From assembly GCF_004010195.1 (NCBI RefSeq), contig NC_057757.1:358367-422366 (forward strand): a DNA stretch of 64,000 nt, given 5' to 3'. Under the pieces are notes generated by a model, which saw only the letters and a program-made list of their open reading frames with translations, did not search any database and had not been told where the DNA came from. Positions 27,701 to 30,700 of this stretch are shown here, one piece after another. Source of the stretch: Chiloscyllium plagiosum (lineage: Eukaryota). The translations under genes and the position numbers were made by a program. Each line of letters opens with the position of its first letter. Positions within the stretch are counted from its first letter, which is position 1.

Positions 27701-30700
27701 ACAGACAAGCTTTCCAAAAGTGTTCCTCAAATGACAGCATCTCTGCAAATCTGGGTTGTGATCAGTTTATCTCACTTCCTCCTGCCCTTGCCTAGGAGCA
27801 CACAGTCAAATATAAACTACATGGGGCAGCTATGAGAGGGAATGTATTCTTCACAAAACCTATTTGAGGAAAGTTGGGTGACTATAGTTCTGGTAGAGAA
27901 TAAAATCACATTGGTTGAAGGTCCAGATGGGATAAGAAGACCCAGTGAACTGTCTCTACCACTATCTTTTTCTGGCATAGAAATACAGAGGAGGCCATTT
28001 GGCCCATTTGTGTTGCTCCAATTCTTTGAAAGTACTATCCCATTAGTCCTTTTCACCCAGGAGAAAGTGAGGTCTGCAGATGCTGGAGATCAAAGTTGAA
28101 ACTTTATTGCTGGAACAGCACAGCAGGTCAGGCAGCATCCAGGGAACAGGAGATTCGACGTTTCGGGCACAGGCCCATTCCTGAAGAAGGGCCTGTGCCC
28201 GAAACGTCGAATCTCCTGTTCCCTGGATGCTGCCTGACCTGCTGTGCTGTTCCAGCAATAAAGTTTCAACTCCTTTTCACCCAACCACTCTTCCTTCATA
28301 GTCTTAAAAGTTTTATTTTTCAGATAATAATCTAAAACCCTTTGTTTCCATTGCCCTTTCAGGCAACATATTCAGGCAACATCACAACAACGTGCTGTGA
28401 AAAAATTCTCTTCATAGAATCATAGACTCCCTACAGTGTGGATGCAGACCATGCAGACCCAGATCCCCTACCCTTTCCCCGTAAGCATTTCCCATGGCCA
28501 ATCCACTTTAGTCTGCAAATCCCTAGACATGGGACAATATTCCATGGCCAGTCTACCTAACCTGCACATCTTTGGACTGAGGGAAGGAGCCAGAACAGTC
28601 AGAGGATCTCTCCTTTGGATTCTTTTGCCAATTATCTTGAATCTGTCTCCCTCTGGTATTTCTGCCACTGGAAATGGTTTCTCCTTGTTTACTCAATCAA
28701 ATCCCTTATGAATCTGAGCATCTCTATTAACTCTCCATTTAACTATCTCAGCTCTAAGAACAATCCCAGTGCCTCTAATTCCCTGGCACTACTCTTGCAA
28801 ATCTCCTCTGCAACCTCTCCAAGGCCTTGACATTTCTCCTAAAGAATGGTGCCGAATAGGGAACTGACCACACAACACCATTTGCTGCTTCACCGAAGAT
28901 CAATACAGGTTTAACACACCACCTTGTGTTTTTACTTTCTAACTGTGTCAATATGCAGCTCTAATCTTTGCCAGGTGATCCTTATCTCTGTCCTCTTGTG
29001 TTTCAGTGGGCCGCCAGAGAAGAAGATGGGCATTAAAGCATCAAATACAGCGGAAGTGCACTTTGAGGATGTGAAGGTGCCGGTGGAGAACGTGCTGGGA
29101 GAGATTGGTGGTGGCTTCAAGGTGGCCATGAATATTTTGAACAATGGACGCTTTGGCATGGCAGCTGCTCTCTCTGGGACCATGAAAGGAGTCATTGCCA
29201 GGGCAGTAAGTGTCTGTGAAACCATTTCTACATCAGAAGCTGGCCTACGTCAATGGCTGGCCAGTATCCCACAATGGCTCACGCTCTTCGGCGATATTCA
29301 ACCATTATGCTTGTCCACTTTCAGTTTGGACCTAGTTACAAAGTGAAAAAGACTCTCACTTCTATAACCTCAGGATGTCCCCAAATTCTGTACTGTCAAC
29401 AAAGTGGGAAGCTTGACTCTGAAATGTAATGTAGAAAATGTGGCACTTAATTTATACACAGCAAATGCCCACAAACAGCAATCCAAAAATTACTAGATAG
29501 TGGAGACATGATAAGAGAGGAAAGTAGTAATAACGGAAATGGGGTCAGAGAAAGACAGGTAAAGAAAGAGACAAGTTTTAGGAATGCATCAATAATCCAG
29601 ACTGTATTTTACAAAGGTAGCATAGACAAAGCTAACAATTCTGTATCTGAGTGCACGAAACAATCATAGCAAAGTGAACAAATTATTAGTGCACATTCAA
29701 TGAAATAAGTGCAAGCTGCTGTTCCTCACATAGGGTTCAGGGTGATCAAGATTGGATCCTGAGTATTGAATGGTATATGACATTCCACAAAATTAGGTAA
29801 AGTTTGGAGGGCGAGCACTGTTAATTAAAGATGGCAGTTGTACAGTAGTTAGAGATGACCTTGGTTCAGGAGATCAGGATGTAGATCAGGGGAAAACTGA
29901 GGAGTGGGATCTTCTGAAACTGTAAATGTTGGGATTGACATCAGCACATTGGTTGGTGTGCGTGACCCCTCAGAGTGGCTGTGCAGCTTAGTGAAAATGT
30001 TAGTGAGAGTGGCCTACAGGCCCCCTAACAGTAACCACAAAATGGGGCAAAATATGTCGTGATTGGAAGCGGGTGGATCTTATTGACTATGAGATCTATG
30101 ATTAGCCCAGGTTAAGAACCCCAGTCGGGGAGCCCTGACTGACCAATATAACCAGTCACTTCAAGGACTGACTCAAGCTGGCTGGTCGTAGTGTACTGTG
30201 CACATGTAAATAAAAGGTGACTTGGTAACGGGATACTGGCCTTTGTGCAATTATTTTGGTAAATAAGAAGACTTGTTTTTTGTGATATGAGTTCAGTAAT
30301 AATAATGGATGCTTTTAACCCACACACCAACTGAAAAGATCAGGTCAGCAATAATAGACAGGATAAGGAGTCAATAGGATGCTTTTAAGAGAGTTTCTTA
30401 GAACTGCACACTTGTGAGAAGATTTGTAGCTCGGGTGGTCGTTGTTGTGGTTCTGTTCGCCGAGCTGGGAATTTGTGTTGCAGACGTTTCGTCCCCTGTC
30501 TAGGTGACATCTTCAGTACCTGGGAGCCTCCTGTGAAGCACTTCTGTGATCTTTCCTCCGGCATTTATGCAATTCTGGTCTCCTTACTACCGGAAGGATG
30601 TTGTGAAACTTGAAAGGGTTCAGAAAAGACTTATAAGAATGTTGCCATGGTTAGCAGGTTTGAGCTATAGGGAGAGGCTAAATAGGCTGGGGCTGTTTTC

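What the first reader, a model, noticed from the sequence alone, without database searches (positions are those of the whole stretch)
28047..28283. Perfect 83-bp palindrome carrying an intact minimal hammerhead ribozyme, with a 13-bp target-site duplication
Seen: a 211-bp insert in intron 9 with mismatch-free arms (28094-28176 and 28189-28271) flanked by tccttttcaccca. The loop plus right arm read ATTC-CTGAAGA-A-GGGC(ctgt)GCCC-GAAAC-GTC^GAAT, which is a type I hammerhead with a 4-bp stem I, a 4-bp stem II and a loopless self-complementary ACGT for stem III. Established: Penelope-like elements carry minimal type I hammerheads thought to act as dimers, and an extra base after CUGANGA is tolerated in a viroid hammerhead. 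Inference: this is a young, non-autonomous, ribozyme-bearing retro-element rather than a DNA MITE. Only the sense strand has the full core, and the left arm is its built-in antisense, so cleavage of the ACADVL pre-mRNA should be masked by the hairpin. It is my best candidate for an under-described system here.
Basis: partly seen in the sequence, partly recalled or inferred. Interest (0 to 1): 0.78.

Follow-up and report, generated by a model that had tools for sequence, protein, structure and literature searches.

The report
Mirror-image Penelope retrotransposon stub
This real 211-base mirror-image insertion in an intron of a fat-metabolism gene is one of thousands of short stubs of a known kind of jumping gene (a Penelope-like element), likely made when the element copied the front end of its RNA from both sides of the cut DNA, and its tiny ribozyme motif is a known type that the hairpin is predicted to keep from folding.

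Summary
Observation confirmed: 83-bp perfect arms, a 13-bp target-site duplication and a minimal hammerhead motif, in an ACADVL intron. It is not an under-described system. It is the pseudo-LTR of a young Neptune-type Penelope-like element (PLE): 8,512 exact copies of the motif exist, and an RT + GIY-YIG ORF ends 155 nt upstream of one. The insert is two antisense copies of the RNA's first 94 and 129 nt, joined head to head; this inverted-plus-tail layout is published. Among 100 unselected copies, ends cluster at +94-96 and +129-132, and 45 start at -1..+3, none at the ribozyme cut site (+33). All 35 head-to-head insertions have the tail on one arm only. Solo copies starting at +1 are mostly preceded by G, as expected from a cap. 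This favours priming from both nicks on uncut, capped RNA over the published self-priming idea. Against a pure build-anew model, some palindromes are recopied as units. The window's own junction occurs only 11 times. No reads or cleavage were tested. This scan noted the same kind of insert before on other DNA (37 notes match).

The parts
28047..28059 (.). left target-site duplication (13 bp)
28060..28093 (-). 34-nt PLE 'tail' (pLTR positions +96..+129), present on this arm only; its outer end is the distal copy-end site
   Evidence: tail defined in PMC8557442 and PMC11167929
28094..28176 (-). left arm: pLTR +13..+95 on the minus strand; begins at the base of hammerhead stem II and lacks the CUGANGA core
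28177..28270 (+). right copy: pLTR +1..+94, no tail, ends at the proximal copy-end site; its first 12 nt form the loop
28177..28212 (+). minimal type I hammerhead motif; predicted cut after 28208; 8,512 exact copies in the genome
28257..28262 (+). AATAAA, specific to this young subfamily (sister subfamilies lack it); sense to ACADVL; effect untested
28271..28283 (.). right target-site duplication (13 bp; first base shared with the arm)
26340..26465 (+). ACADVL exon upstream of the host intron (about 1.6 kb away)
29005..29205 (+). ACADVL exon downstream of the host intron (about 0.7 kb away; borders approximate)

Best explanation
The insert is two copies of the front end of a Neptune-type Penelope-like element's pseudo-LTR joined head to head between a 13-bp duplication, likely made in one insertion event in which reverse transcription was primed from both target nicks on likely capped, uncut RNA. 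Shown: identity with the pLTR of an RT + GIY-YIG element; two sharp copy-end sites (+94-96, +129-132); the tail on one arm only; a sharp start peak at +1; almost no copies starting at the ribozyme cut. Inferred: +1 is the transcription start; the protein nicks both strands about 13 nt apart; one nick is extended from +94 and the other from +129; both cDNAs run to the RNA 5' end; one snaps back at stem II (+13) and the two anneal and are sealed by repair. The copy codes for nothing and is most likely inert. In ACADVL pre-mRNA the 83-bp hairpin is predicted to hold stem II and the cut site paired, so it would not cleave. The identity is about 95% likely and the mechanism about 65%.
For: An ORF with RT (PF00078, E 1e-8) and GIY-YIG (PF01541, E 3e-4, just under the cut-off) ends 155 nt upstream of an exact copy of the motif in L198. 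It has a Cys-rich linker between the domains, the Neptune/Nematis mark per PMC8557442. Exact counts: 17,460 for pLTR +33..+63, 1,377 for the ORF end and 158 for the ORF start. In the first 100 of the 17,460 matches, 33 end at +94-96 and 42 at +129-132; 45 start at -1..+3, 22 further upstream, 33 at +4..+31 and none at +32/+33. They form 35 distinct head-to-head insertions (37 rows, 2 counted twice), all with one tail arm and one tail-less arm (p about 1e-11), and 29 of the 35 have a TSD of 10 bp or more. In 22 of 35 the tail-less arm reaches further 5' (9 the tail arm, 4 equal); one strand folding back cannot give this. In L085 and L107 the two arms do not overlap at all. 2,067 copies start exactly at +1 against 123 at +33 and 40 at +35 (two-base criterion). 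A G precedes +1 in 20 of 29 solo copies against 28% expected (p 5e-6); after exclusions and pooling it is 19 of 34 (p 6e-4). Short snap-backs with the window's junction occur in L340, L344 and L347. In vitro, the Anolis PLE protein cuts and extends both strands, starts at two internal RNA sites that bound the tail, and mainly uses uncut RNA (PMC11167929).
Against: Some palindromes were recopied whole. L286, L300 and L309 share a 43-nt mutated filler and private arm changes with different flanks. 11 loci share the +57/A junction, 5 of them with a private base. L125, one of the 7 short-tail-arm cases, belongs to that lineage. The window's own junction could therefore descend from a small source: 5 simple copies have the same orientation and 1 is flipped, with no shared private base to decide. 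In the second sample, selected for a +1 start, 6 of 47 palindromes break the one-tail rule. The two arms never mix subfamilies, and rare variants are shared by both arms in L004 and L018, which also fits self-copying or gene conversion. In the first sample G before +1 was unremarkable (2 of 8 solos; 6 of 18 rows at +1). Loop orientation can be flipped by short-read assembly or recombination where arms overlap fully. No RNA data locate the start, no reads confirm the locus, and no full-length intact ORF of this subfamily was found (L198 is 5'-truncated).
Confidence: 0.7

Rival explanations
1. The copy descends from a palindromic source locus that is transcribed and retrotransposed whole by the PLE protein, i.e. 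a true non-autonomous hairpin element.
For: Unit recopying is shown for two other junction types. Five loci have an insert with the same simple junction and orientation as the window, including the window itself.
Against: The junction occurs only 11 times in the genome, also in solo copies with 12-16-nt snap-backs and once flipped, and in a sister subfamily (L030). None of the 35 unselected palindromes has it without filler. The five share no private base.
Confidence: 0.15
2. One strand (antisense RNA or a single cDNA) folds back and copies itself, the self-priming reading of PMC3846280; later loop flips scramble orientation.
For: Short snap-back synthesis is visible at junctions. Arms share subfamily and rare variants. 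The tail arm carries the loop in 9 of 35.
Against: In 22 of 35, including the type seen in the window, the loop is on the tail-less arm. In 7 the tail arm begins at +57..+109 while the other reaches +1..+7, two of them without overlap. +94-96 is an independent end site in solo copies (18 of 45 solo rows lack the tail).
Confidence: 0.1
3. A DNA MITE or an assembly fold-back artefact.
For: Perfect arms and a small size; the assembly has N gaps at larger copies; reads were not examined.
Against: The inverted repeat is not terminal (34-nt one-sided tail). TSD lengths vary, 45 of 100 matches are solo, the junctions vary, and the sequence is contiguous with an RT ORF. A fold-back artefact would not give a TSD.
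Confidence: 0.03

Closest known systems
EN+ PLE insertions with inverted 5'-truncated pLTR, 30-40-bp tail and TSD (PMC3846280, PMC8557442; passages read)
   Same: Head-to-head inverted copy, tail at one end only, TSD, junction microhomology.
   Different: Here the insertion is reduced to the first 94 and 129 nt with no ORF, and such stubs outnumber ORF-start copies about 100-fold. PMC3846280 explains the inversion by self-priming on antisense RNA, while the junction data here favour two primings.
Minimal hammerheads in metazoan PLE pLTRs, including Neptune, Poseidon and Xena of fish (PMC4209133; parts 1-2 of 4 read)
   Same: Core, extra base between 9 and 10.1, G10.1-C11.1, palindromic 15.2-16.2, 4-bp helix I, mostly dispersed single motifs, and opposite-strand pairs 100-700 bp apart.
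   Different: Helix II is 4 bp (7-8 in Schistosoma). The proposed role of cutting the transposition template is not reflected in copy starts here.
Poseidon of Anolis carolinensis, PAc (PMC11167929; parts 1-2 of 4 and passages read)
   Same: Two internal RT start sites bounding the tail, both strands cut and extended, uncut RNA as the main template, hammerhead just 5' of the start sites.
   Different: It belongs to the Poseidon clade. That paper saw no difference in start site between strands and does not discuss inverted insertions in the text read; here the two sides of one insertion use different sites in 35 of 35 and 41 of 47.
Non-LTR retrozymes as non-autonomous PLE derivatives (bioRxiv 10.64898/2026.07.22.740005; parts 1-3 of 5 read)
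   Same: Type I hammerhead, pLTR origin, no coding capacity; this subfamily also has 320-nt tandem units.
   Different: Retrozymes are head-to-tail with a ribozyme in each unit; this insert is head to head with one complete core.

Membership tests
EN+ Penelope-like element (Neptune clade) | single ORF with RT and C-terminal GIY-YIG linked to this pLTR | tested here: met
   L198:4146-6092, exact motif 155 nt downstream; PF00078 over its cut-off, PF01541 21.5 bits against 22.6. The window copy itself has no ORF.
EN+ Penelope-like element (Neptune clade) | Zn-finger-like Cys motif between RT and EN | tested here: met
   Cys-rich linker in the L186/L198 translation; criterion from PMC8557442. Nematis shares it.
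EN+ Penelope-like element (Neptune clade) | RT groups with Neptune in a tree | not tested
   No reference PLE proteins were available from the tools.
EN+ Penelope-like element (Neptune clade) | pLTR in partial tandems, inverted 5'-truncated copy, 30-40-bp tail, TSD | tested here: met
PLE minimal hammerhead | core C3-A9, G12-A14, A15.1-U16.1-H17; extra base 9/10.1; G10.1-C11.1; palindromic 15.2-16.2 | tested here: met
   sequence against PMC4209133
PLE minimal hammerhead | helices kept across families | tested here: inconclusive
   Stem II is kept with different letters between families (299 motif hits in overlapping loci against 3 per shuffle). Stem I is 4 bp only in this subfamily and 2 bp in sisters. 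The alignment of 17 decayed copies had 1 of 21 pairs with a two-sided change.
PLE minimal hammerhead | self-cleavage (dimer or protein-assisted) | not testable with these tools
   Only an energy estimate was made; no excess of solo copies starting at the cut site.
Rfam hammerhead families | covariance-model match | tested here: not met
   none at E<=10 in 27000-29500; none at gathering score in 34 loci
non-LTR retrozyme | head-to-tail units each with a full hammerhead | tested here: not met
   The window copy is head to head; tandem units exist elsewhere.
MITE | terminal inverted repeats, fixed ends and fixed TSD length | tested here: not met
   one-sided tail, variable junction and TSD, many solo copies

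The most novel reading that the evidence does not exclude
PLE insertion is an obligately two-sided reaction: each nick takes a different one of the two RT start sites on capped, uncut leader RNA, and a snap-back at hammerhead stem II captures the opposite cDNA. The hairpin stubs so made can themselves become source loci and found short-lived non-autonomous palindromic lineages, a route from by-product to new mobile family that needs no ribozyme cleavage.
Probability: 0.45. Interest if true: 0.5.

Novelty: new member of a known kind. Interest (0 to 1): 0.27.

Why it matters
The locus itself is ordinary and probably harmless. The family is useful as a large, young, near-identical record of how PLEs insert, a step still described as undefined in PMC8557442. 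It gives testable rules: one tail per palindrome, a start at +1, no use of cut RNA, and recopying of some hairpins as units.

Tried and rejected
MITE, retrozyme and artefact readings were rejected as above. Poly(A) processing as the cause of the two end sites was rejected: sister subfamilies lack the AATAAA yet end at the same places, and copies have no A tails. A splice acceptor as the cause of the start peak was rejected: there is no AG at +1 and no shared upstream exon. An excess of starts at the cut site (123 against 40) was rejected as evidence of cleavage: in the 30 of 123 loci examined, 10 are joins through GAAT/ATTC microhomology with the other arm, and about 5 are solo, against about 12 of 30 in the control (classed by eye). 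U6 joined at the cut, a lead from earlier notes, gave no Rfam match at gathering score in those 30 loci; short U6 pieces could be missed. A GIY-YIG family search of the genome gave only one weak hit. A conserved stem pairing +51-57 with +104-110 showed no covariation. Mixed-template arms were seen in one doubtful case only (L099). Sequencing reads could not be obtained, so the empty site, polymorphism and expression stay open. Dfam and Repbase are not available, so the family may already be catalogued. Eight paper searches found no paper on this family or on two-sided priming of PLE palindromes. Supplements of PMC11167929 (Fig. S2), PMC4209133 and the preprint were not seen and may bear on that.

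Full report
Numbering: +1 is the first A of the hammerhead (window 28177). All other loci come from the window's own genome, G000.

1. Observation. The arms, loop, TSD and hammerhead letters are exactly as reported. The host is ACADVL on the + strand; the intron number and the taxon were not tested. Rfam has no hammerhead match here. The first 34 nt of the insert have no partner.

2. What it belongs to. The 36-nt motif has 8,512 exact matches and the 31 nt after the cut site have 17,460. Upstream of untruncated copies lie a pyrimidine-rich spacer and the end of an ORF. Downstream of the 34 nt lies the start of an ORF. L198 holds 649 open codons with RT and GIY-YIG, ending 155 nt before an exact copy of the motif; it is 5'-truncated, and no complete intact ORF of this subfamily was found. 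A Cys-rich linker points to the Neptune clade (PMC8557442, passages); no tree was made. So the insert is pLTR +1..+94 on the + strand joined to pLTR +13..+129 on the - strand. The window holds at least seven older relatives, two of them with the same layout and 15-bp TSDs.

3. Ends of copies. I took the first 100 of the 17,460 matches, all on C1; the anchor lies 3' of the cut, so 5' ends are unselected. 3' ends: 33 at +94-96 and 42 at +129-132. 5' ends: 45 at -1..+3, 22 further upstream, 33 at +4..+31, none at +32/+33. After removing 2 double-counted rows there are 35 head-to-head insertions and 45 solo rows. All 35 have one arm ending at or before +110 and one at or after +124 (p about 1e-11). 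L074 and L091 share a flank and may not be independent. 29 of 35 have TSDs of 10-17 bp, measured with up to 4 nt of microhomology. In 22 the tail-less arm reaches further 5', in 9 the tail arm, in 4 neither. In 7 the tail arm is short (starting at +57..+109), and in 2 of these the arms do not overlap. A second sample was selected for starts at +1 (76 loci from the first 100 of 2,067 matches; 17 earlier rows and 7 partner rows were left out). It gave 47 palindromes, 41 obeying the one-tail rule and 6 not.

4. Start and cleavage. 2,067 copies start exactly at +1, 123 at +33 and 40 at +35. The latter two use a stricter two-base test; corrected, the +1 to +33 ratio is about 13 to 1. The +33 excess is mostly stem-I microhomology joins. 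Solo copies starting at +1 are preceded by G in 20 of 29 (28% expected); after dropping 3 confounded loci and adding the 8 earlier solos it is 19 of 34, p 6e-4. With the initiator-like context at +1 (consensus recalled, not from a call) this suggests a capped start; no RNA data were obtained. D. virilis Penelope also starts inside its pLTR (PMC2377424, passages).

5. Built anew or recopied. The window's junction occurs 11 times: 5 simple copies as in the window, 1 flipped, 2 with templated inserts, 2 solos with 12-16-nt snap-backs and 1 truncated. The snap-backs show that a cDNA ending at +1 can fold onto stem II and copy itself briefly. Two other junctions were clearly recopied as units: three loci share a 43-nt mutated filler, and 11 share the +57/A join, 5 of them with a private base, all with different flanks. 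Both routes exist. For this locus building anew is more likely but not proven.

6. Mechanism. Shown: identity, end sites, tail rule, start peak, rarity of cut-site starts. Inferred: transcription from +1; staggered nicks; two primings at +94 and +129; snap-back and annealing; repair. This matches the in vitro behaviour of the Anolis element (PMC11167929, parts 1-2 of 4 and passages). It disagrees with self-priming on antisense RNA (PMC3846280, passages), though the shared variants between arms and possible loop flips keep that reading alive at low odds. The ribozyme is predicted to be inactive here: the hairpin pairs it, a single minimal hammerhead from Schistosoma did not cleave in vitro (PMC4209133, parts 1-2 of 4), the Anolis one needed protein, and 8 of 9 Xenopus dimers did not cleave (preprint 10.64898/2026.07.22.740005, parts 1-3 of 5).

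7. Known and new. The motif type, its place in Neptune pLTRs, opposite-strand pairs and the inverted-plus-tail layout are published. PMC8969392 (passages) lists the layout as a routine curation feature. I found no paper on this family or on two-sided priming; supplements, Dfam and Repbase were not seen. Earlier notes of this scan describe the same kind of insert (37 match by words; none by sequence). They are not independent support. They led me to retest the cap G and the cut-site starts. My unit-recopying result qualifies the note that the mirror half is built anew each time.

8. Verdict. Real, young and ordinary in kind: a new member of a known class, interest 0.27. The value lies in the family-wide junction statistics, not in this locus.

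Noticed in passing
L286, L300, L309; L277-279, L281, L290, L306, L313, L319, L321, L323, L330, L125: Two palindromic lineages with identical odd junctions and private bases but different flanks: hairpin stubs recopied as units.
   Followed up: partly
L139, L147, L160, L047, L131: Internally deleted 320-nt (and 224-nt) head-to-tail units of the same subfamily, each with the hammerhead, often beside assembly gaps: retrozyme-like arrays.
   Followed up: partly
window 38244-38428 and 57579-57680: Older head-to-head pLTR insertions of other families with a one-sided tail and 15-bp TSDs.
   Followed up: partly
window 26587-26969, 12770-12940, 208-294, 1102-1226, 31449-31580: Further decayed pLTR remnants; 26587-26969 has 65-bp inverted arms around about 220 bp of other DNA in the same ACADVL intron.
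   Followed up: no
window 30480-30520, minus strand: A different hammerhead-like motif with a longer stem II, probably another PLE family.
   Followed up: no
window 28257-28262: AATAAA and a fourth stem I pair are both features of this youngest subfamily only; sister subfamilies lack them.
   Followed up: partly
alignment A1, columns 55-61 with 113-119: A nearly invariant 7-bp stem enclosing the proximal end site in 17 diverged pLTRs, a candidate protein-binding element; no covariation seen.
   Followed up: partly
L192 (G000:C5:56428900-56436000): Near full-length, frameshifted copy of the sister subfamily's ORF with an Ala/Thr-rich low-complexity stretch before the RT.
   Followed up: no
L118: Two arms, both starting at +1, separated by 135 nt of unrelated DNA inside one 15-bp TSD: capture of host sequence at the junction.
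   Followed up: no
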